Shown here piece by piece: positions 1 to 9,903 of a stretch of DNA of 25,282 nucleotides. Source of the stretch: a virus (lineage: Duplodnaviria > Caudoviricetes). The stretch covers positions 1 to 25,282 of the IMG/VR virus record IMGVR_UViG_3300037855_000080. The stretch is one strand, 5' to 3'. Each line of letters starts with the position of its first letter. Position 1 is the first letter of the stretch. The position numbers were made by a program, and so were the translations under genes. The notes below the pieces were generated by a model. It did no database searches. It worked only from the letters and a program-made list of their open reading frames with translations, and was not told the origin of the DNA.

Positions 1-531
1 ATGATCGGCCTGGGCAAAAAAGACGAAGACGGCAAGCAGGTGCGCATCGAGCACCGGGGCAAATACACGCGTGCCTCGCGCACTGGCGGTGTTGCGGTTC
101 GCGGCGAGAAGAAGGTCGGCTCGGTCAATCTGACCGCCAATTCGTCCAAGGGCCTGCGTGCCTCGACGCGCATCGCCAACGGAACACGCGTTGCGCTGCA
201 AAATGGCCGGTTTCAGCTGATTGGCCGTTGGCGTTCGGGCCCTGTTGGTTTCAACCTGTCCAAGACCCGTGTCAGCGCATCTGTGAAGAACAAGGCGGGC
301 ACCTTTAACTTCCTCAAACCGCAGTATTCATCCTTTAAACTTGCCGGAATCCAGCTGCGCGGACGGAAGGCCGCAGAACTACAAATGATCTATATGCTGA
401 TCATGACCGTGGTGTTTGCGGTCATCTTCGGCGTAAAACTGTTTGTGTTTCTGGCTTGGCTCTTATCGTTGCCTGTCTTGTTTATATGGGACTTGATCGT
501 CGGGTTTGTGCAAGGCGTGCGCAGCAGCTGA
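1..531 (+). CDS. Hypothetical membrane-anchored basic protein, DUF4236-like
   Basis: 176 aa ORF; K/R-rich beta-type N-terminal region with a GPVGFNLSKTRVSASV motif resembling DUF4236; long hydrophobic C-terminal stretch; upstream context lies outside the window. Confidence 0.65.
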   Translation: MIGLGKKDEDGKQVRIEHRGKYTRASRTGGVAVRGEKKVGSVNLTANSSKGLRASTRIANGTRVALQNGRFQLIGRWRSGPVGFNLSKTRVSASVKNKAGTFNFLKPQYSSFKLAGIQLRGRKAAELQMIYMLIMTVVFAVIFGVKLFVFLAWLLSLPVLFIWDLIVGFVQGVRSS

Positions 532-585: not shown

Positions 586-1245
586 TCACCTTTCCGCCCT
601 CGGCACCCAAACAGAGAATACCCCACTTTCGTCTGTGATCCTTTGCTCGATCCGCGCCGCGGCTTCTGCGGCATCAATCGCATCAAGGATCTTGGCCTGC
701 GCGGCATTGAACGCCACGGCATCAGCAATGCTGTCGGTCCGATGGTTCAGCCCCGTGGTGCTGTCATGCCAGATGAAGGCATCAAAGCCCGCGAGATCAT
801 CGCGTGCGGGATCGACCAGTTCCCAAGTCTCCGCACCGTCATCGCCGATGCGCACACCGTTTATCACGCGCGCCGCGGCATGATCCTGCTTTAACGCGGC
901 GAAGCGGCGTCGATCGTAATCCCGAGCAGCGACCAGGCTTTCATGGATCTGCCCATCGGCGGTGCGGAAGACGTTTTCTGCAATGTGATCACCAAAATAC
1001 ATGATGGCCTCGGGGCGCGTGCGCAGATCGTAACACCATTTCAGCCACCCTTCGGCTGTCGCGTGGTCGGGGTCCGCACTTTGGGCTGCATCAACTTCAA
1101 TTGTCTCCATCATGCCCAGCATGACCTCATACCCTTGCGCATAGTCGAACTCCGTCACACCCGCCGCGTCAAAGACCCGCTGCAATGTCTGATATGCGCC
1201 GTCGCACACGCCCATGTCTTTGAAGAATTGCAATGTGGTTTTCAT
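586..1245 (-). CDS. Hypothetical protein, possible fibre/adhesin assembly factor
   Basis: 219 aa from ATG at 1245 (MKTTLQFF), ATGA overlap with the stop of 1242..1727; acidic; last gene of the fibre cassette. Confidence 0.7.
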   Translation of the reverse strand: MKTTLQFFKDMGVCDGAYQTLQRVFDAAGVTEFDYAQGYEVMLGMMETIEVDAAQSADPDHATAEGWLKWCYDLRTRPEAIMYFGDHIAENVFRTADGQIHESLVAARDYDRRRFAALKQDHAAARVINGVRIGDDGAETWELVDPARDDLAGFDAFIWHDSTTGLNHRTDSIADAVAFNAAQAKILDAIDAAEAAARIEQRITDESGVFSVWVPRAER

Positions 1246-1727
1246 CCGACTGCTCCATATGTGCGAGCTGATCCGGCCAGCCATGTGACGGCATGCCCGT
1301 TGGTGTTGATGGCTTTGCCGCCGGCAGCGCCGGGGTTGCCGCCAGCCACGACTTCAAGGGCGACCGACGAAGGCCCTAGCCCGGTTCCGCCTGCTGCTCC
1401 CCACCCGCCCCCACCACCAGCAGCGCCTGTTCGTTCGGCAACCGCGGTAGTGTTGCCATCTGTGCCGACATAAACCGCAAATAAATCTCCTTTGCCGGAT
1501 TGCCCCGGCCCGCCGCCTGGCGCTGCGAAGACTGTCTGAAAAGTAGCGCCGTAAGGCGGGGTCGGTCGGTAATCGGGATAACCGGGCGAAAGGGTTGGTT
1601 GTAACCGGGGGCTGGTCATAATCAGCTCCCCAACGCCACCGCCAGTCCCCGGCAAAATACGCCCACCGCCCTGACCTGATATTCCGCCAATTTTGAACGG
1701 TCCAGGATTACCGCTTCCTCCACCCAT
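1242..1727 (-). CDS. Glycine-rich adhesin, C-terminal part (T-even gp38-like)
   Basis: 161 aa; polyglycine motifs; ends GAAGGKAINTNGHAVTWLAGSARTYGAVG, resembling the gp38 C-terminus; AGGAGG 7 nt upstream of the ATG. Confidence 0.75.
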   Translation of the reverse strand: MGGGSGNPGPFKIGGISGQGGGRILPGTGGGVGELIMTSPRLQPTLSPGYPDYRPTPPYGATFQTVFAAPGGGPGQSGKGDLFAVYVGTDGNTTAVAERTGAAGGGGGWGAAGGTGLGPSSVALEVVAGGNPGAAGGKAINTNGHAVTWLAGSARTYGAVG

Positions 1728-1738
1728 CTCGTTTCCTC

Positions 1739-2518
1739 CTAAAGACCGCCGCCCTGTTGGGCGCCAGCGCCGCCTGCACCACCCGCGCCCCCATGGCTTG
1801 CAATGGTTGCTCCGGCCCAGTTGTTTGAATCCGTGGCTACTGATCCTGGCTGGCCGATTGCACCACCCGCACCAAAGGAGCCCAGTACAGTGCCATCTGT
1901 ATTGCCGTAAGGCATAGCCCCGCCGCGGCCACCACCAGCACCGCCGCCACCGGGACTGTGTGCAGGTACGTTCAAGATCGCTAAAAGCTCGCCAGATTGT
2001 CCAGCACCGCCACCACCGCCACCACCAATATAGCCGCCCGCATTATCAATGCTGATCGGACCGGTCAGGGCGATGGCTGGCCCACCAGGTGTTGGCGCGA
2101 CGTAAGTGACACGGTCGCCTTGCATAAAGCCACCGTCTCCCCCCTTGCCCATGATGAAGCCGTTGTTGATCAGTGTGAGCCCGCCGGGGAAGGCGCCACC
2201 CATATCGAGGGCGGGAGTCGAGGTATTGTCTGACCAGATGTAAACGCCGGACGCGATTGTGACCCTCGCGGCGGAGGCCCCATCCCAGCCTTGGCCCAAA
2301 AGATAGTTGCGCAAGTTCAGATGCAGCTGATGCGCGGAGATTGTGTGCGAGAACTGCGCAGACTTGCCCCTGAGGCTGAGTTTGCCGATGGGCCCAGTCG
2401 GCACGCCTGCAAGCGCGCGCACGGCAGCTTCCCCAAGCGAGATGGTTGCGGTGGCAGGGCGCCCAAGCTCGGTATTAACGGCCGAGAGTGAGAGCGGCCC
2501 TGTGGTAGGAAGCGGCAT
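1739..2518 (-). CDS. Glycine-rich adhesin, N-terminal part (T-even gp38-like receptor-recognition protein)
   Basis: 259 aa; helical adaptor-like N-terminus ending LRGKS, then LINNGFIMGKGGDGG and IDNAGGYIGGGGGGG motifs typical of gp38-like adhesins. Confidence 0.8.
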   Translation of the reverse strand: MPLPTTGPLSLSAVNTELGRPATATISLGEAAVRALAGVPTGPIGKLSLRGKSAQFSHTISAHQLHLNLRNYLLGQGWDGASAARVTIASGVYIWSDNTSTPALDMGGAFPGGLTLINNGFIMGKGGDGGFMQGDRVTYVAPTPGGPAIALTGPISIDNAGGYIGGGGGGGAGQSGELLAILNVPAHSPGGGGAGGGRGGAMPYGNTDGTVLGSFGAGGAIGQPGSVATDSNNWAGATIASHGGAGGAGGAGAQQGGGL

Positions 2519-2521
2519 GGG

Positions 2522-2812
2522 TTACGGGCTCCCAAAGGCTATGACATTGCCCAGCACAGTCAGATTGCCCGAGGCGTCGAGCACCATGATATTGGTGCCG
2601 TTGTGGCGAAAGGTCAGGGTCGTGCCGCTGGCATGTGCCGTGAAGGCACCCCAGCGGGCCCCCACCTCGACGATCTGCTCTGTGCCATCGGCGCGCTTGA
2701 GAAAGAGCTTTCCATCGCGGGTGTTGATTGCGAGCTCGCCCAGATCAAGCTGAGCCGTGGTTGGCACCTTGGTGGCAACCGAAGAGCGTTTCATACGAAT
2801 GATACTGGCCAT
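2522..2812 (-). CDS. Short tail-fibre tip/adaptor protein with Mtd-N-like N-terminal domain
   Basis: 96 aa; IRMKRS..VP....LDLGELAINTRDGKLF motif; C-terminal LDASGNLTVLGNVIAF fibre-tip motif; AGGAGG RBS. Confidence 0.75.
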   Translation of the reverse strand: MASIIRMKRSSVATKVPTTAQLDLGELAINTRDGKLFLKRADGTEQIVEVGARWGAFTAHASGTTLTFRHNGTNIMVLDASGNLTVLGNVIAFGSP

Positions 2813-2859
2813 GTGGCCTCCTGCGGTTCAGCCTCATGTGAGGCAAGGATCAAGGCGGA

Positions 2860-3975
2860 TCAGAACGTACCGCCGTCAAGGGTGATGCCGGTGATGCTGC
2901 CACCGGTAATGGCCACAGCATCGGCCGCTTGGGTGGCAAGAGAGCCAAGCCCAAGGTTACTGCGTGCCGTGGTCTTGTTTGGCAGATCCGCGAGGTTGGA
3001 GGCTGCAGCCAGCTTGCCGGCCAGCCCATTGGTCACCGTGCTGGCAAAGTTCGGATCATCGCCTAGGGCTGCGGCAAGTTCATTCAGCGTATCAAGCGCA
3101 CCGGGGGCGGCATCGACCAGCGCGCCAATCGCGCTCGCAACAAAGGCCGTGGTCGCAAGCTGGGTTGTGTTGGTCCCGGCAGCAGGTGTCGGCGCGGTGG
3201 GCGTGCCGCTCAGCGCCGGCGAGGCAAGTGCTGCCTTGGCATCAAGCGCCGCCTGCAGCCCGGTGACCTGCGCGATCGCGTGGCTGTGGGTTGCGGGCGT
3301 AAAGCTCGTGGGCTTGCCCGTCACCCCTGTCCAGGGCACGCTGTCAGCGGCCTCTGCCGCATCCACCTTACCATTGTTGTTGGTGTCATAGGTCGCTTTT
3401 GCCATGTCGCCTGCGCCAAAGCCCGTCAGCGCGGCTTGCACAAAGGCAGTGGTGGCAATCTGGGTTGTGTTGGTCCCGCCGGTCGCTGTGGGGGCCGTTG
3501 GCGTACCGGTCAAGCCAGGCGAGGCGAGTGCGGCCTTGGCGTTCAGCGCCGTCTGCAGCCCCGTCACATCTGCAATGGCATGGCTGTGGGAAGTTGCGGC
3601 TTTACTATCAAGTGCTGTCTGCAAACCGCTCACCTGCGCGATCGAATGCGTATGCGCGCTGTTGGCCTTGCCTGCGAGCCCGGTATCGAACTGCGACTTA
3701 CGCACAAGATCGGTACTGGCGCTCGCGTCCTGGCTCGATTTGGGCACCACCGCGAAGGTCTTGGCGCCCGCAATGCTCTGGGCCCCGGTCAGATCTACAA
3801 AAGCCCCGCGTCCGGCCAGCGGCAAGATGGCTGTGGCATTACCTGCGCCGTCATCGCCCTTGCCAATATAAAGGGTGTCATCGACTTCGTTATGAGCGAC
3901 CTCACCGGATTTCAGGGCGGCGGGCGCGCCGGCATTGCCGGCCTGGCGGCGTTTGAACTGGATCGTATTGGCCAT
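2860..3975 (-). CDS. Tail fibre protein
   Basis: 371 aa from ATG at 3975 (MANTIQFKRR, TGATG overlap); HxHxIAxVxGLQxAL repeats x3; SPxLxGTPTAPT..NTTQxATTAFV repeats x2; APGALDTLNELAAALGDDPNFA motif. Confidence 0.9.
   Translation of the reverse strand: MANTIQFKRRQAGNAGAPAALKSGEVAHNEVDDTLYIGKGDDGAGNATAILPLAGRGAFVDLTGAQSIAGAKTFAVVPKSSQDASASTDLVRKSQFDTGLAGKANSAHTHSIAQVSGLQTALDSKAATSHSHAIADVTGLQTALNAKAALASPGLTGTPTAPTATGGTNTTQIATTAFVQAALTGFGAGDMAKATYDTNNNGKVDAAEAADSVPWTGVTGKPTSFTPATHSHAIAQVTGLQAALDAKAALASPALSGTPTAPTPAAGTNTTQLATTAFVASAIGALVDAAPGALDTLNELAAALGDDPNFASTVTNGLAGKLAAASNLADLPNKTTARSNLGLGSLATQAADAVAITGGSITGITLDGGTF
3141..3599. repeat. Diverged ~150 bp intragenic direct repeat, copies at ~3141-3290 and ~3441-3590
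   Basis: The copies align at an exact 300 bp offset, e.g. caaaggc.gtggt.gcaa.ctgggttgtgttggtcccg and tggctgtggg in both. Confidence 0.85.
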
Positions 3976-4181
3976 CAGAAGAAGCCTCCGTTGATAGGTG
4001 TGTCGGTGGGTAGGATGGTGATGCCGGGATCGCCTTGGTCGCCCTTGTCGCCTTGCGGACCAATCGCACCTTGCGGCCCGGGCTGGCCGCCGATCCGGAT
4101 GCGGTAAGGACCACTCGCGACCCGTAGGCGCACAGGTGCTGTGAGGGTGATGGGACCCATCTGGGGTAAAACGTAGCTCAT
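3975..4181 (-). CDS. Small collagen-like virion protein
   Basis: 68 aa; Gly-X-Y run GQPGPQGAIGPQGDKGDQGDPG; coupled to both neighbours; ends INGGFF. Confidence 0.8.
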   Translation of the reverse strand: MSYVLPQMGPITLTAPVRLRVASGPYRIRIGGQPGPQGAIGPQGDKGDQGDPGITILPTDTPINGGFF

Positions 4182-4531
4182 GTTGCAAGCCCGCGCGTCA
4201 CCGGCAGGATGACCGGCAGTTCCAAGAGAAAGCCCAGATGCAGATCGGGCGCGAGATCGGTGCGCACGAGATCAAGCATGACGCGTCCGGGCGGGAGGCC
4301 TACAGTTTGCTCGGGACGTAGCGCCAGTTCCAGAACCGTATCGCTGATCCGTATGATCCCGTGATCGACACTGGTGAGCGTGGCCAAAACCTCGGCGGCA
4401 TTCTGTCGCTCGCGGATTTGCCCCGCATAGCTTGCACCTTCGGCAAAGACCGGCGCTTCCGCCTCAATCTGCAGCCGCCACGCGTATCCGATCAGAACAG
4501 CCGGGCCCTCCGTCACAGTAGTGGTCGTCAT
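4178..4531 (-). CDS. Putative fibre-attachment adaptor (BppU-N-like beta-sandwich)
   Basis: 117 aa from ATG at 4531 (MTTTTVTEG) with GGAG RBS; GQIRE..AAEVLATL..LELALRPEQT..L..MLDL pattern recalls phage Ig-like adaptors; fold is inference. Confidence 0.6.
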   Translation of the reverse strand: MTTTTVTEGPAVLIGYAWRLQIEAEAPVFAEGASYAGQIRERQNAAEVLATLTSVDHGIIRISDTVLELALRPEQTVGLPPGRVMLDLVRTDLAPDLHLGFLLELPVILPVTRGLAT

Positions 4532-4562
4532 GTTTTGCTCCAAATGCCGGGATTGCGCCGGA

Positions 4563-4591
4563 TTGCGACTTGGCAAACGCGAGGATAGAAA
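4563..4591 (+). promoter_or_regulatory. Candidate sigma70 promoter for the UPF0149 gene
   Basis: TTGCGA (4563-4568), 17 nt spacer, TAGAAA (4586-4591); GGGAG RBS before the ATG at 4619. Confidence 0.4.
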
Positions 4592-4618
4592 ACACCCGGA
4601 AATGCCGGGAGAATTTAC

Positions 4619-5302
4619 ATGGGACAATCCGATCAAGACCTCGATCACCTGAGCGAGTTGCTGCATGCGCTGCCCACTCAGAACATGCCCATGACGCTCA
4701 GCGAACTGGACGGATATGTGACCGGCGTTCTGGCCTGTCCGGACATGATCCCACCATCGGAATGGTTGCCCCTTGTCTGGGGAGAAACCGGCGATGCCGC
4801 GTTTGCTAACCAGCAGACGGCAGAAGAAACCATTGGTGCCGTCATGGCACATTACAATTCCGTTGCCGACGCGATAACCCGCAGCCTCTGGGTTGAACCT
4901 ATCTATGAGATTGACCCCAACAGCGACGAGACGATGTGGGAGCCTTGGATCGATGGCTTCACCCGCGCGATGGGCCTCAGACCGGATGCCTGGTCAAACC
5001 TGCTCGACGCTGCCGATGAAGAAACAAAGGCCACACTGATTTTCATGATGGCGCTGCAAGACATTTATACTGGAAATAGCAAATTCACGGAGGAGGAGAT
5101 CGACGAGATCGACCTCGAGGCACCTGATTTGATCCCAAATTGCGTGGCAACAATCCTTCACCAGTCTCGCCCCGAACTCGCGGGACAGGCTCCAGCCAAC
5201 CTGCCGGGGCAGCCGTTTCAGGCAGGCCTGCGACCCGGCCGAAACGATCCATGTAGCTGCGGGTCGGGTCGCAAATACAAGCAGTGCTGCGGCCGCAACT
5301 GA
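4619..5302 (+). CDS. yecA: UPF0149/YecA-family protein with C-terminal SEC-C metal-binding motif
   Basis: 227 aa; [31 protein letters not shown] and WIDGFTRAM motifs; ends [22 protein letters not shown]. Confidence 0.9.
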
Positions 5303-5318
5303 AAGCTATAGATCAATT

Positions 5319-5522
5319 TCAGGACCGCCACCCGCATAGGCGCGCGCCGACCTCGTTGTGTGCCACAATCTGCGCAAGCGTCACGTCACTCAAAACATCA
5401 TGGCGCGACGGCTGAATAGGCTCTGCCCAATCGCAATCGTCCCGCAAGCCTCGGGGATCAATCCCGCATCCAGCGGTGAGCGCGGCGCTCAAGATCAGCG
5501 CGGTCAGCGTTTTGCACGGCAT
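5319..5522 (-). CDS. Outer-membrane spanin (o-spanin, Rz1-like lipoprotein)
   Basis: 67 aa from ATG at 5522 with AAAGGA RBS; signal peptide and lipobox LTAG-C; starts within the i-spanin gene in the +1 frame. Confidence 0.8.
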   Translation of the reverse strand: MPCKTLTALILSAALTAGCGIDPRGLRDDCDWAEPIQPSRHDVLSDVTLAQIVAHNEVGARLCGWRS

Positions 5523-5715
5523 GGCGAATGTCCTTTGAGGTTTGCATTGATCTGACCCGCGCATCGGCACGGCGGATGGCCAATTCGGCCTCGGCTGCTT
5601 GGCGCCCCTGGCGGAAGGCGATCCAGAGGGCGGCAAAGACGGCCAAAGCCATGGCGCCGTAGAACGCAGCCCGCCTACCAAAGCCACTCAGGAATACGCG
5701 GACAACGCCGATCAT
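5458..5715 (-). CDS. Inner-membrane spanin (i-spanin, Rz-like)
   Basis: 85 aa; single N-terminal TM helix followed by an Ala/Arg-rich helical domain; directly after the endolysin. Confidence 0.75.
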   Translation of the reverse strand: MIGVVRVFLSGFGRRAAFYGAMALAVFAALWIAFRQGRQAAEAELAIRRADARVRSMQTSKDIRHAVQNADRADLERRAHRWMRD

Positions 5716-6644
5716 GGCGTGCGTCCTGCCCGGTGATCTTCAATGCGGGCGGACCGTGCCTTCAGCGCATAGAGAATGACACCAACAAACATCACCACCC
5801 CGATCCATGGCAAGGCCACGGTCAGCCACGCCTCAAGACCTGCGAGCGCGAAGATCCGGGAGGCTGTATCCCGGGCCTGTTCGGCCTCAATCAATGCCGG
5901 TGCGATCTGAGAGGTGATGGAGCCTGCGGCCCCCAGAACCCCAAGCCCGATTTGCGCATTCGCCGCCGTCACGATGCGGCTGTCCTCTGGTGCACCCGCC
6001 GCCCGTTTAGGCGCAACGTTGCGCGGGTTCGCTAATTTCAGAGCCTCCTCGAACACCACATCAATGATCGGCACCAGCGGCAGCGCATGGTCATCACGGA
6101 AGGCGAGGATTGCGGCCCGGGTGCGGGGGCCGATCATACCGTCAACCGCTCCCACCTCGTGATAGCCAAGCGCGCGCAGGCGGGTCTGCACATCGCGAAC
6201 GGTCAACGTGGCAGCAGGAGCCACATTGCCCGCCCGTCGGACGCCCAAGAGCTTGGAGGCGGGATAGCGCTTTATATTGACCGCATCGGACTGGTTGCCG
6301 CCTAAGCCCCAAACCCATGGCCCGTCGATCCGGTCAATGAAGAACACATGTCCCTGCCAGCTGGAGGTCCCGCGCGGGATTACAGCAATATCGCCGGGCT
6401 GCGCGTCTGCGATCTCGACCGGAATGCCCCAGTCCAGATAGGACCGCGCGGTGAGCTTTCGCGTTGACCGGATGCCCGCCCGCTCAAGGCAGTGCCCCAC
6501 AAAGGCCGCGCACCAAGCCACGCTGTCATGCTCAACCCAATCGTGCCCGACCGAGGCGTACATCGCCACGATGGCAGGGTTGTTCTCAGGGCCGGGGCCC
6601 TCGGTCGTGCCGATATAGCCGCGGGCAATCTCAAATGGTGTCAT
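5712..6644 (-). CDS. Endolysin: TIGR02594/NlpC-P60-like peptidase, peptidoglycan-binding domain and C-terminal hydrophobic helices
   Basis: 310 aa; AWCAAFV (Cys), QGHVFF (His), LGGNQSDAV; VQTRLRALGY..VDGMIGPRTRAAILAF PG-binding motif. Confidence 0.9.
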   Translation of the reverse strand: MTPFEIARGYIGTTEGPGPENNPAIVAMYASVGHDWVEHDSVAWCAAFVGHCLERAGIRSTRKLTARSYLDWGIPVEIADAQPGDIAVIPRGTSSWQGHVFFIDRIDGPWVWGLGGNQSDAVNIKRYPASKLLGVRRAGNVAPAATLTVRDVQTRLRALGYHEVGAVDGMIGPRTRAAILAFRDDHALPLVPIIDVVFEEALKLANPRNVAPKRAAGAPEDSRIVTAANAQIGLGVLGAAGSITSQIAPALIEAEQARDTASRIFALAGLEAWLTVALPWIGVVMFVGVILYALKARSARIEDHRAGRTP

Positions 6645-6660
6645 GGTCGTCTCCCCATGG

Positions 6661-6689
6661 AAAAGAAAACGCCGCCTTGAGGGGCGGCG
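6661..6689 (-). terminator. Intrinsic terminator-like hairpin between holin and endolysin
   Basis: Minus strand CGCCGCC-cctcaa-GGCGGCG followed by TTTTCTTTT. Confidence 0.65.
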
Positions 6690-6719
6690 GTGTGCAATTT
6701 CGGTCGTGTCAAAGAAAGG

Positions 6720-7031
6720 TTATTTCTTTTTGCCCAGCCAAGCCGCGAGCAGTGTTTCAGCACCCCGCGGCCCAAGATACGCCAGCGTCGCCACAAACCC
6801 CGTGCTGACTGGCTGGGTCAGGCCCATATAGCTGGCCGCCGCATCACCAATGAGCGCCATGCCGACGGCTACAGGGATTTCCCACAAAAGCTCTTTGCCA
6901 AAAAAGCGTCGCTTGCCCAATTTCACCTCCCCTGAATGATACATCAGCCGCCCCGTGAATGCCCCGATCAGCGTGGTGACTGCGCCGCCAAACAGGTTGT
7001 TGATCATTTCGATAAAGCTCTGGTCCTGCAT
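6720..7031 (-). CDS. Holin
   Basis: 103 aa; about three hydrophobic segments; basic C-terminus (GKKK); immediately upstream of the endolysin. Confidence 0.8.
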   Translation of the reverse strand: MQDQSFIEMINNLFGGAVTTLIGAFTGRLMYHSGEVKLGKRRFFGKELLWEIPVAVGMALIGDAAASYMGLTQPVSTGFVATLAYLGPRGAETLLAAWLGKKK

Positions 7032-7081
7032 GGCCGCCGTCTTTCGTATTGGATGGTCTCGGGCCGATGTCGCGGCCCGGC

Positions 7082-7312
7082 TTAATAGTCCCCGCCGTCG
7101 AGCAACGCCTCAAAGGCACTGTCGGCACCATTGCGGATCTTGAGGGTTGGCGGTGTGGTGCTTGTATCGACCCAAAGCATCCCCGGCGCGGTCGCTGTTG
7201 GGGCAGTCGCGCCGCTGCTGGTCGATCTCAGCGCTGCGATGATCTGGTTGATCTGCGCGCGCACCGCCGCGCCATTGTCGTTGATGATCACAAAGCTGGG
7301 TGCTTGAGACAC
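7082..7312 (-). CDS. Stand-alone tail-fibre anchor domain
   Basis: 76 aa; GTG start overlapping the upstream TAG; I.NDNGAAVRAQIN..AL.S.SSGATAP..GMLWVDT..LKIRN resembles the N-terminus of long phage fibres; ends LLDGGDY. Confidence 0.7.
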   Translation of the reverse strand: MSQAPSFVIINDNGAAVRAQINQIIAALRSTSSGATAPTATAPGMLWVDTSTTPPTLKIRNGADSAFEALLDGGDY

Positions 7313-9903
7313 TATGCCACCTCATCCGCTATGAGCCGCAATTCCGAGACGATCGGCGTAAAAGCCGGATCACTGGTTCTGAGCCAGGCCCGCGCCTCGA
7401 CCGCGCGCGCTTCGATCTCGCTGTTGTCGATCCTGCCCCATGGACCCCAGACGGGGTTGGCCGCTGGATCGTCATCGGTTTCCCGGACCTCGAGGACGAC
7501 ATCGATATCAGCTCCTTCCGAGCCATCGAAGTCGGCCCAGCTGTCGATCGGGGTCATGCGGTCGTCGATGTAATCAGAGAGCGCCGAGGCGCCGACCAAG
7601 ATGTCCGAGCGTAGGCGCACGCGCCGCAGCGCTCCGAAGTCGAGGCGTGTCCCGAACTGATAAAGCCCCTCCGTCGCCAGCACGACTGGGCTGCCCGCGG
7701 CATCTGTCCCCGTCTCGAGCTTAAGTGTGCCAGCCGTTGCCAAGAGACCGGTTTTGGGACCCGGAAAGGACGGGTCCGCCGCAAGCGTGTTCAGTTGCGC
7801 AAAGCTCAGGATTTGCACACCCTTGGTCGTTACCGTGCTGACGGGACCAATCCGACCTTCGCTATCCTCGGCCCGCAGCAAGTAGGTCCCGGGCTTCAGC
7901 GGCACGACCGCGATAGCCTCCCCGCCCGAGACACGGTCCATCAGCGTTGAGTTCGCCCAAGAGGCATTTGCATCCTTGCTGTGACGTATAATGACGCTGC
8001 CACCCACCCGCACATCGACGTCGACCGCTCGCTGCCATTTCAGCACCGCAAGACCACCGGCCGACTGGATGGTCAGACCTTCCAAGGCAGCCGGCGGGGC
8101 TGTCAGCCCCACCACCTCACGCGTTCCCTCGCGCCAGGGCGAGGAGACACCCAGCACAGAGAGTGCTTTGACGCGGAAGTCCCATTGACCCGGCGCAATG
8201 TCGCGCAGCTCGATCAGCGTACCGCTCGTCCGCCCGTAATCTTGCCAATCGCCGCCATCGCGGCGCGCCTCGAACTGATAGCTCTCAACAAAGCCGCTTT
8301 GGGCTGCAGTCCAACGCACCCGCAACAGCACCTTTACCGCCGAGCCGTCCCGCGTGACGTAGAGCTCTTCTTCCCCCTGCGGCGCACCAGGCGGTGCAAT
8401 GTCAAAGGCCGAGGGCAGCGTGGTGCGCGGGGCGGCCGCATAGATCTGTTCCTCAGAGGCGTCCCAGTCATAGACCAAGGGCGAGGTCTCACGCAGCAAA
8501 AGCTCTGGCGCGATCCGCGGGCCAGACTCGAGCTGGGTCAGGTCCAGTCGGACGGCCTCCACCTCAAAAGGTTTGCCATCATTTGGATCCGCCCCACCAA
8601 AGCCCCAGCGGGAATAGCGCAAGAGCGTCGTATCGCCGGCTGCCACACGCCAGGCCTTGAGCTTGCCGGAGAGACGCACGCTCATCTGCCGCCGCGCGCG
8701 CTCCAGCTCGATCTTGGCCAGACGCTGCGCCATTGCCGCTGAGATCGTGAAGGGTAGCGCAATGTCGCGCCAAACCTGCTCGCCGCCATCCTCGACCCGG
8801 TAAGCCTCAGAGGCATAGGCCGGGAAGTCATCGGGCTGCCAGTTATTCTGCGGGCTCACGAACTGGCCGCGCACCGCGTTGAAGTTTGCAGCGCGGGTTT
8901 GGCGCGTGGTCAGCGTCATACCACCCTCGCGCGCATCATCCGCGGTAAGCAGGCTCGATGGTATTCGGTAGGCGCCTGCACGCATGCGCCACTGACCCGC
9001 CTGCCAGATGCAGCGCCCGGCCATGGCGGTCAACATCGCCTCGATGATGGTCTTGGGGGTTTCCGAGAGCGAGACCACCCCATTGCAGCTGTAGCGTGGC
9101 TCAAAGCCCCCACCTGCAAGCGCGATCTGTTCATCGCAGATATTGGCGGCCTCAATCAGGCTGTCGGTCTCGATCCCATCCGGCGCGCCGATGCCCGCCC
9201 CGATACCAAAGATGGGATGCGCCATATAATCTGCCACGCAGAGGGCTGCGTTTTCGGAATAGCTGCGCGCGCCCGTGCGTGGATCAAAGATATCGTCCTT
9301 GCCCTTCATATCGACCGTGATGTTCGGGATCCCGCTCGGGAAGACGTCCGGATCATAGGTCAGGCGCAGATAGATTGCAGCACAGCCCGCCAGTCGATGG
9401 GCTGCCGTCCAGAGATCAGGTGCTGCTGTGATCAGCCCCGCAAATGCGCTTTGATCGTCATGCCCGAGGCGTTTCTCAACCGCGAGCTTACCTGCCCATC
9501 TGCCTTGGGCCGTTCCGGCGGCATCGAGCGCCATCTCGCCCTCAAAATAGACAGCCCCGATGGATTGCACGCGATGGGCGGCCAGCACCACGATGAGGTG
9601 CAGGTCTTTGTCCTTGTCCCCTGTGGCATGCAGGAAGGTGATCACACCTCCTTTGCGCGTCCTGCCATACACCATCTGGCGCGGCATCACCGGCTCGCGC
9701 ACGGTCACCGTGCGGGCCTGCAAGGCGATCTGGCCCACCGAGGGCTTGGGCATCATCGATTGCGCCGCCGCTGAGAGTAGCATCGACGCGCCGAAGTTTG
9801 CGGCAAAGCCGATCAGACCCGTCGCTGCAAAAGCGGCCGCCACGCCGCCCGCCGCGATCGCCGCACCGCCAAGGGCCACGGCGCCAAGAATAATGGGTGG
9901 CAT
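7312..9903 (-). CDS. Central tail-tip / host-specificity protein (gpJ-like) with FN3-like domains
   Basis: 863 aa; PRQMVYGRTR, YSENAALCVADY, AANICDE, RYSCNG, AQRLAKIELERAR motifs; FN3-like GQWDFRVKALSVLG. Confidence 0.85.
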   Translation of the reverse strand: MPPIILGAVALGGAAIAAGGVAAAFAATGLIGFAANFGASMLLSAAAQSMMPKPSVGQIALQARTVTVREPVMPRQMVYGRTRKGGVITFLHATGDKDKDLHLIVVLAAHRVQSIGAVYFEGEMALDAAGTAQGRWAGKLAVEKRLGHDDQSAFAGLITAAPDLWTAAHRLAGCAAIYLRLTYDPDVFPSGIPNITVDMKGKDDIFDPRTGARSYSENAALCVADYMAHPIFGIGAGIGAPDGIETDSLIEAANICDEQIALAGGGFEPRYSCNGVVSLSETPKTIIEAMLTAMAGRCIWQAGQWRMRAGAYRIPSSLLTADDAREGGMTLTTRQTRAANFNAVRGQFVSPQNNWQPDDFPAYASEAYRVEDGGEQVWRDIALPFTISAAMAQRLAKIELERARRQMSVRLSGKLKAWRVAAGDTTLLRYSRWGFGGADPNDGKPFEVEAVRLDLTQLESGPRIAPELLLRETSPLVYDWDASEEQIYAAAPRTTLPSAFDIAPPGAPQGEEELYVTRDGSAVKVLLRVRWTAAQSGFVESYQFEARRDGGDWQDYGRTSGTLIELRDIAPGQWDFRVKALSVLGVSSPWREGTREVVGLTAPPAALEGLTIQSAGGLAVLKWQRAVDVDVRVGGSVIIRHSKDANASWANSTLMDRVSGGEAIAVVPLKPGTYLLRAEDSEGRIGPVSTVTTKGVQILSFAQLNTLAADPSFPGPKTGLLATAGTLKLETGTDAAGSPVVLATEGLYQFGTRLDFGALRRVRLRSDILVGASALSDYIDDRMTPIDSWADFDGSEGADIDVVLEVRETDDDPAANPVWGPWGRIDNSEIEARAVEARAWLRTSDPAFTPIVSELRLIADEVA

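What the first reader, a model, noticed from the sequence alone, without database searches (positions are those of the whole stretch)
1242..7312. Candidate plug-and-socket fibre system: shared C-terminal DGG peptides paired with shared N-terminal Mtd-N-like domains
Seen: three unrelated structural proteins end in the same peptide: LLDGGDY* (7082-7105), INGGFF* (3975-3995) and LDGGTF* (2860-2880). Two proteins begin with homologous domains: MANTIQFKRRQAGNAGAPAALKSGEVAHNEVDDTLYIG (3975) and MASIIRMKRSSVATKVPTTAQLDLGELAINTRDGKLFLK (2812). Each of those two genes lies directly after a gene ending in the peptide. Established: this N-terminal pattern resembles the N-terminal domain of Bordetella phage Mtd and related fibres. 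Inference: the peptide is a plug and the domain a socket, so the fibre is built as a chain of separate polypeptides (anchor, 371 aa shaft, 96 aa tip adaptor, gp38-like adhesin). That would allow mixed long and short fibres, or exchange of single modules.
Basis: partly seen in the sequence, partly recalled or inferred. Interest (0 to 1): 0.85.

Follow-up and report, generated by a model that had tools for sequence, protein, structure and literature searches.

The report
Coded peptide joints chaining phage fibres
Three fibre-region proteins of this prophage end in the same short D/N-G-G-x-F/Y peptide, and two are followed by a gene starting with a small cap domain like that of phage T4 gp37; the peptides likely clip into the caps to chain separate proteins into one fibre, and a matching pattern between peptide and cap types in many unrelated phages suggests that assembly order could be read from sequence.

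Summary
All three peptides and both gene junctions are real, conserved and far above chance.

The two N-terminal domains are homologous (profile match 97%). They are T4 gp37-N-like and only remotely Mtd_N-like. T4 gp36 and 5 other Straboviridae gp36-position proteins end D-[FY]-G-x-[FY] directly before gp37.

In IMG/VR, IDGGxF-stop occurs in about 2100 stretches against 103-140 for three variant patterns. 62 of 119 matches precede such a cap, against 0 of 118 and 0 of 120 for two controls. Cap subtypes pair with peptide subtypes across 36 protein families (A: GG-N/F/H/Q-F; B: GG-T/S-F/Y).

Likely chain: collar, 68-aa anchor, 371-aa shaft, 96-aa mini-gp37, gp38-like adhesin split over two genes. 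The 76-aa 'orphan plug' alternates in relatives with a fused fibre and may carry a short second fibre.

The scan noted this peptide/cap system before on other DNA (8 notes listed). I found no paper describing the motif.

The parts
7312..9903 (-). gpJ-like central tail-tip protein, 863 aa (context; its stop abuts the start of the 76-aa gene)
   Evidence: PF13550; phrog_31 E 4e-69
7082..7312 (-). 76-aa fibre-anchor-like protein ending LLDGGDY (orphan plug); in relatives the same anchor either ends in DGGxY or continues into its own S74-chaperone fibre
   Evidence: PHROG matches to tail-fibre/collar-fibre proteins; 68 plug-form vs 36 fused-form of 104 loci; S74 in the fused form
4178..4531 (-). 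117-aa T5 p132/LtfC-like Ig-fold protein, likely the collar ring that anchors the chain
   Evidence: profile hits 7qg9 p132 E 3.5e-6 and 8hqz E 4.6e-6; Pfam LtfC in 15 of 63 aligned members but not the window protein itself; model pLDDT 92; Foldseek 7qg9/8hqz TMq 0.6 among other Ig folds
3975..4181 (-). 68-aa anchor: N-terminal segment with alternating hydrophobic residues, short collagen stretch, A-type plug INGGFF
   Evidence: Collagen E 6e-4; a plug gene ends within 60 nt upstream of the shaft in 36 of 38 genome loci
2860..3975 (-). 371-aa shaft: A-type cap (about residues 1-57), PTR fibre repeats, B-type plug LDGGTF; plays the role of T4 gp36
   Evidence: PF12789 E 3e-18; plug in 36 of 38 loci; D, G and F invariant in 56 aligned C-termini selected for having a plug
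2522..2812 (-). 96-aa tip adaptor ('mini-gp37'): B-type cap (1-52) plus a short all-beta C-terminal part
   Evidence: T4 gp37-N 40% over 47 aa; PHROG long-tail-fibre distal subunits; model pLDDT 86
1739..2518 (-). 259-aa gp38-like glycine-rich adhesin, N-terminal part
   Evidence: PF05268 E 9e-4, below cut-off; phrog_2056 E 1e-4
1242..1727 (-). 161-aa glycine-rich protein, likely the second half of a gp38-like adhesin encoded as a separate gene (own GGAGG, other frame)
   Evidence: separate ORF in 30 of 30 relatives with both hits; Atlas cluster with GP38 in 13% of members, a lead only
586..1284 (-). 232-aa conserved downstream protein, no family; possibly a fibre-assembly helper (untested)
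   Evidence: no Pfam or PHROG hit; follows the adhesin genes in most relatives

Best explanation
The C-terminal D/N/E-x-G-x-F/Y peptides likely dock into the N-terminal gp37-N-type cap of the next, probably trimeric, fibre protein, so that this lambda-like prophage would build a side fibre from separate chains: LtfC-like collar (117 aa), 68-aa anchor, 371-aa shaft, 96-aa mini-gp37, gp38-like adhesin. The penultimate residue and the cap subtype likely form a specificity code that fixes the order (GG-F/N-F to an A cap, GG-T/S-F/Y to a B cap). The 76-aa protein behind the gpJ-like gene likely offers a second B-type plug, which would put the same tip on a short stalk. Shown: sequences, order, conservation, enrichment, subtype pairing, homology to gp37-N and p132. 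From the literature: T4 gp36 trimers bind the N-terminal region of gp37; LtfC rings hold fibre N-termini. Inferred: peptide-in-cap binding, trimer stoichiometry, position on the virion, partner of the 76-aa plug, adhesin binding to the 96-aa tip.
For: (1) T4 gp36 ends DFGYY 8 nt before gp37; 5 of 5 further Straboviridae checked end D-[FY]-G-[TS]-[FY] before gp37. (2) PMC3004832 (passages): trimeric gp36 binds the N-terminal region of gp37. (3) IDGGxF-TAA: about 2100 IMG/VR stretches (estimate) vs about 130 IGDGxF, 103 IEGGxF, about 140 IDGGxK. (4) Cap within 300 nt downstream: 62 of 119 (67 with a broader profile partly built from these loci) vs 0 of 118 and 0 of 120; IEGGxF gave 24 of 97, so E is a tolerated variant. 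(5) Reverse test: plug upstream of 61 of 75 B caps and 77 of 80 A caps vs 0 of 5776 ORF ends in control loci. (6) Plug-bearing proteins fall into 36 BLAST families; family votes for penultimate N/F/H/Q/Y vs T/S are A 15:3 and B 2:18, p 9e-6. (7) Held-out IEGGxF set: 0 of 8 A caps and 14 of 17 B caps follow T/S. (8) In one shaft family, all 4 shafts followed by a D-type cap end DCGTF/DAGTF and none of 89 DGG-ending shafts is. (9) An LtfC-like gene lies within 900 nt upstream of 140 of 162 A caps and 0 of 249 other caps. (10) The 76-aa plug replaces a fused fibre at the same point, and 6 closely related loci carry an extra B cap with no plug gene in front of it.
Against: No complex was modelled or measured. 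48-53 of 115 IDGGxF-ending ORFs have no detected cap next door, and 14 of 75 B caps had no plug by my rule (two end DGGTFS); Burkholderia phage BcepSaruman and the P-SSM2 cap have none. The tree test of plug/cap swaps had only 2-4 independent pairs and was not significant; DFGTF precedes both B and D caps. Plug and cap are neighbours on the DNA, so co-inheritance can inflate the pairing, and A vs B is a single split on the cap side. In the window the INGGFF codons also give a GGAGG 9 nt before the shaft ATG. E at the penultimate position (36 of 68 homologues of the 76-aa protein) precedes both A-like and B caps, so its partner is not fixed. No T5 tail-tip middle protein partner for the collar was identified.
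Confidence: 0.75

Rival explanations
1. The peptide is a C-terminal folding or capping element of its own trimer; the next fibre binds a broader end surface, and adjacency only reflects gene order.
For: About 45% of IDGGxF-ending ORFs have no detected cap next door; no complex model is available.
Against: 36 unrelated families carry it on different scaffolds; its sequence tracks the subtype of the following cap; terminal tips such as the 96-aa protein and S74-ending fibres lack it.
Confidence: 0.12
2. The motif is a DNA-level feature: a Shine-Dalgarno sequence for the overlapping next gene, or a conserved recombination block inherited with the cap.
For: The 68-aa plug codons give GGAGG 9 nt before the shaft ATG; 22 of 48 cap-less matches combine GGAGG with an ATG within 5 nt.
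Against: 46 of 67 cap-followed plugs have neither GGAGG nor a near ATG, and all four Gly codons are used; IDGGxK-stop keeps the GG codons but is about 15-fold rarer and precedes 0 of 120 caps; the other two window plugs use GGC-GGG and GGC-GGT; the 76-aa plug is kept about 3 kb from any cap gene.
Confidence: 0.04
3. Sub-rival: the main chain is right, but the 76-aa DGGxY end is a relic of truncation of the fused fibre or binds the A cap or another partner, so there is no short fibre sharing the 96-aa tip.
For: The fused form reads LLDAAG at the same place; the penultimate residue is variable (E36, S11, T7, G6, D3, V2, A2, Q1); the window has three plugs but two caps.
Against: All 68 short forms end DGGx[YF] at 76 aa; none has N/F/H, 18 have S/T; one lineage has a spare B cap.
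Confidence: 0.3
4. Sub-rival: the LtfC-like ring sits at the neck or along the tail rather than at the tail tip, so the chain is a whisker- or collar-type fibre.
For: The module lies beyond the lysis genes and also occurs in a myovirus-like Ralstonia phage and in marine phages; fold hits include a P74-26 neck chain and baseplate Ig domains.
Against: The best annotated sequence matches are T5/DT57C tail-tip collars; the chain ends in a gp38-like adhesin.
Confidence: 0.3

Closest known systems
T4 long tail fibre distal half, gp36-gp37 joint (with the T2/S16-type gp38 adhesin)
   Same: Cap homologous to gp37 residues 7-51; upstream gene ends D-x-G-x-aromatic; gp36 is known to bind the gp37 N-terminal region (PMC3004832 passages); gp38-like gene follows the tip.
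   Different: Lambda-like prophage; the joint is used twice in series with two cap subtypes, plus a third plug; the tip is only 96 aa; no gp34, gp35 or gp36 Pfam family among the scanned genes; adhesin split over two genes. The peptide's role is not described in the passages I read.
T5/DT57C lateral fibre attachment (p132/LtfC dodecamer plus Ltf/LtfA N-termini)
   Same: The 117-aa protein matches p132/LtfC and is followed by a protein with a short N-terminal segment that could donate strands, as LtfA does (PMC10713586 passages).
   Different: The anchored chain is a 68-aa collagen stub ending in a plug, not a long fibre; its homology to LtfA-N was not tested; no tail-tip middle protein was identified.
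Bordetella phage BPP-1 Mtd (Pfam Mtd_N PF18454)
   Same: Remote profile likeness. True Mtd_N caps occur in related loci inside the same chains, after DYGSI-type ends. BPP-1 Bbp9, upstream of mtd, has an internal IDYGDL and ends DLGGIA; two Mtd trimers per fibre are reported (PMC2408619 passage).
   Different: The window caps do not match Mtd_N; no reverse transcriptase or other DGR gene was seen among the window's ORFs.
Cyanophage A-1(L) neck fibre gp82-gp81-gp80
   Same: A fibre experimentally shown to be a head-to-tail chain of separate trimers (PMC10966104, section 8 read).
   Different: None of the three proteins ends in the plug or starts like a cap (by eye): an analogue in design only.

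Membership tests
T4 gp36-gp37 type joint | Downstream protein starts with a gp37-N homologous domain | tested here: met
   96 aa: 40% over 47 aa, E 2e-7; 371 aa through profile match to the 96-aa family, 97%
T4 gp36-gp37 type joint | Upstream protein ends D-x-G-x-F/Y as Straboviridae gp36 does | tested here: met
   window; T4 plus 5 of 5 Straboviridae
T4 gp36-gp37 type joint | Physical trimer-to-trimer binding | not testable with these tools
T4 long tail fibre (whole) | gp34, gp35 and a PF03903 gp36 body | tested here: not met
   no such Pfam or PHROG family among the tail-region genes scanned; PF03903 does hit T4 gp36
Pfam Mtd_N (PF18454) | Score above the 26.3-bit cut-off | tested here: not met
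   no hit at E<=0.1 for either window protein, while related-locus caps score 56-59 bits
Mtd-N / beta-prism cap fold | Shared fold or remote homology | tested here: inconclusive
   hhalign 84% and 44%; monomer fold searches gave only weak rows (best Z 5.0; collagen XV/XVIII trimerisation domains Z about 4)
T5 p132/LtfC collar | Sequence and fold match | tested here: met
   profile E 3.5e-6; PF23926 in 15 of 63 members; TMq 0.6; generic Ig folds score similarly by fold alone
T5 p132/LtfC collar | Dodecameric ring round the tail tip holding fibre N-terminal strands | not testable with these tools
   no virion structure
gp38 adhesin (PF05268) | Score above cut-off in one polypeptide | tested here: inconclusive
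   19.6 bits vs cut-off 25, profile 17-183 of 218; glycine-rich remainder in a second gene

The most novel reading that the evidence does not exclude
Phage fibres across Caudoviricetes are wired by a small orthogonal peptide-cap code (at least four subtypes, from T4 gp37-N to Bordetella Mtd_N) that lets assembly order and branching be read from sequence. This prophage uses it to join a T5-type collar to a T-even-type distal half-fibre, and to display one shared adhesin tip on both a long and a short stalk.
Probability: 0.4. Interest if true: 0.8.

Novelty: new variant of a known kind. Interest (0 to 1): 0.62.

Why it matters
It would give a residue-level account of the T4 gp36-gp37 joint and a testable idea for how two Mtd trimers attach to each BPP-1 fibre. 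It would give a sequence rule for ordering the many unannotated fibre genes of environmental phages. It would explain how tips, shafts and 65-83-aa extender modules are exchanged as whole genes, and would offer natural orthogonal trimer connectors for protein assembly. The predictions need only short peptides and 50-residue domains to test.

Tried and rejected
Complex prediction (96-aa x3 with shaft C-terminus x3) was not available, so there is no verdict.

PDB sequence searches with the 96-aa protein, its profile, the A cap, the 76-aa and the 259-aa proteins found no relevant structure. A joint cap profile hit Mtd at E 0.04, but 9 of its 67 rows were Mtd-like, so this is circular. Fold searches of the 96-aa monomer gave nothing clear, and Mtd was not among the listed rows.

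tblastn of the 76-aa and 161-aa proteins against GenBank phages found no match. The tree-based independent-pair test was underpowered. A-1(L) neck fibres were checked as a possible solved example and lack the motif.

A frameshift artefact between the 259- and 161-aa genes was rejected: the split is conserved. A Shine-Dalgarno origin was rejected as the general cause.

Paper searches: motif words returned 14 unrelated papers; 'Mtd_N' collapsed to mtDNA papers and was useless; one search returned none; searches listed no paper on this joint.
Full report
CONTEXT. The window is one whole 25,282-nt contig holding the late region of a lambda-like prophage on the - strand. Tail tube, tape measure, gpJ-like tip, holin, endolysin and spanins are named by Pfam/PHROG; terminase, portal and capsid I recognised from the translations only. 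Close relatives lie in Rhodobacteraceae and other alphaproteobacterial genomes (78 loci, of which L001-L039 match from the N-terminus and the rest only through internal repeats).

OBSERVATION. The three C-termini and two junctions are as reported. A composition estimate for 3 such ends among 29 genes gives P about 2.5e-10 (motif chosen after the fact). Of the 39 genome loci, 38 had a scorable shaft start. Of these, 36 have a plug gene ending within 60 nt upstream (L016 and L025 have it about 500 nt upstream) and 36 end the shaft in a plug (L030 ends differently, L037 is cut off). The two N-termini are homologous by profile though not by BLASTP.

WHAT THE CAP IS. The 96-aa N-terminus found 1083 GenBank phage records at E<=1, mostly T-even gp37 starts; it is 40% identical to T4 gp37 7-51. 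Pfam Mtd_N does not hit the window proteins but hits caps in related loci; profile likeness to those is 84% and 44%. I therefore distinguish four subtypes: A (371-aa type), B (gp37-N type), C (Mtd_N proper) and D (weak Mtd_N). T4 gp36 ends DFGYY just before gp37. Of six further hits checked, the five Straboviridae end D-[FY]-G-[TS]-[FY] and Burkholderia phage BcepSaruman does not. A review states that trimeric gp36 binds the N-terminal region of gp37 (PMC3004832, passages). A 2026 T4 cryo-EM preprint fits the distal rod at low resolution and does not describe this interface in the passages and section 6 that I read (10.64898/2026.03.06.709160).

SURVEY. IDGGxF-TAA occurs in about 2100 IMG/VR stretches (estimated from 4 of 64 parts), against about 130, 103 and about 140 for IGDGxF, IEGGxF and IDGGxK. 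A cap started within 300 nt downstream in 62 of 119 usable matches, against 0 of 118 (IGDGxF) and 0 of 120 (IDGGxK); these counts use profiles built from other loci. IEGGxF, meant as a control, gave 24 of 97, so it is a variant of the plug. In reverse, among the best 80 of 579 B-cap loci, 61 of 75 with enough upstream DNA had a plug within 350 nt; among the best 80 of 198 A-cap loci (mostly close relatives of the window), 77 of 80 did. None of 5776 ORF ends in control loci matched.

CODE. After removing near-duplicate caps, 12 of 16 plugs before A caps have N/F/Q/Y at the penultimate position, against 0 of 42 before B caps. Clustering 404 plug-bearing proteins without their last 8 residues gave 36 single-linkage families, with votes A 15:3 and B 2:18 (p 9e-6). 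In the held-out IEGGxF set, 0 of 8 A caps and 14 of 17 B caps follow T/S (some rows are duplicates, and 4 rows were unassigned). Within one shaft family (98 rows), the four shafts followed by D caps end DCGTF/DAGTF, 89 DGG-ending shafts are followed by B, 2 DFGTF by B, and 3 had no cap found; the tree test was not significant. C caps follow DYGSI-type ends. Some relatives insert 65-83-aa proteins that are just a cap plus a plug (L011, L035, L036, L418), as expected of extender modules. Caveat: neighbouring DNA is co-inherited, and A vs B is one split among caps.

ANCHOR. The top profile hit, 26dk_M, is labelled only 'Structural protein' and was not followed up. In DT57C a dodecameric LtfC ring holds LtfA N-terminal strands (PMC10713586, passages). 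Such a gene lies within 900 nt upstream of 140 of 162 A caps and 0 of 249 other caps (the profile came from these loci, and B caps usually lie a shaft's length further on). The order collar-like gene, small plug gene, A shaft, B tip is also seen in Ralstonia phage PY059YO380 (collar-like by eye only); S-CBS2 shows the A-then-B chain with FSGGSF before A.

ORPHAN PLUG. The 76-aa gene follows the gpJ-like gene. In 104 loci with a homologue, 68 end at 76 aa in DGGx[YF] and 36 run on into a 218-228-aa fibre, which carries an S74 chaperone in the one scanned. So the plug stands where a fused fibre stands in sister loci. Its penultimate residues fit B better than A, but not decisively. Six closely related loci have a second B-cap gene without a preceding plug. 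I put a short fibre sharing the 96-aa tip at about 0.6 given the main model.

TIP. The 259-aa protein is gp38-like below cut-off. The glycine-rich 161-aa gene behind it has its own GGAGG and is a separate ORF in all 30 relatives with both hits; 9 further relatives had no 161-aa hit. That the 96-aa C-terminus binds the adhesin as S16 gp37 binds gp38 is inference; the fold row for 6f45 was only Z 3.1.

RIVALS. A Shine-Dalgarno origin fits the 68-aa plug and some cap-less cases but not the bulk. A self-capping role cannot be excluded without a structure. The A-1(L) bead-chain neck fibre (PMC10966104, passages and section 8) shows that chained trimers exist but lacks these motifs. BPP-1 Bbp9 has two plug-like motifs, and two Mtd trimers per fibre are reported (PMC2408619, passage); linking the two is my speculation.

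NOVELTY. No paper on the motif surfaced. PMC12143355, PMC13252515 and the Klebsiella RBP preprint 10.64898/2026.05.12.724579 were seen as passages only and do not describe it there. The library lacks most subscription papers, and I read no supplements. The scan's own notes list this system on eight other DNAs; I had reached the T4 reading before that call, and they are not independent support. A word search for the LtfC-collar link and a sequence search with the 96-aa protein found nothing earlier. Verdict: a real, widespread, apparently undescribed generalisation of the T4 gp36-gp37 joint, here with a collar anchor, a subtype code and an orphan plug; binding remains untested.

Noticed in passing
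window 1242-2518 (-): gp38-like glycine-rich adhesin apparently split over two genes (259 + 161 aa), separate in 30 of 30 relatives with both hits; may be a two-chain polyglycine sandwich.
   Followed up: partly
window 4619-5302 (+): UPF0149 + SEC-C gene inserted on the opposite strand between the spanins and the collar gene; absent at this position in the relatives mapped, so likely a moron.
   Followed up: partly
L484 (BPP-1) 4599-6125: Bbp9, upstream of mtd, has an internal IDYGDL and a terminal DLGGIA, both like the DYGSI ends before Mtd_N caps; could account for two Mtd trimers per fibre.
   Followed up: partly
L035 7890-8335; L036 8287-8729; L418 7287 onward; L011 8258-9045: 65-83-aa proteins made only of a cap and a plug extend the chain to five or six links.
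   Followed up: partly
L086, L097, L109, L112, L121, L143, L145, L152 and others: Many cap-less IDGGxF ends directly overlap a roughly 275-aa gene that I recall as T4 gp13 neck-like (not tested by a call), i.e. the fibritin position; their caps may be encoded elsewhere.
   Followed up: no
PDB 26dk chain M: Best profile hit of the 117-aa family, an unnamed 197-aa 'Structural protein'; that entry might show the collar and perhaps the joint.
   Followed up: no
window 586-1284 (-): 232-aa protein with no family, conserved behind the adhesin genes.
   Followed up: no
window 1-531 (+): 176-aa basic protein with a hydrophobic C-terminal stretch and no Pfam family, at the contig edge.
   Followed up: no
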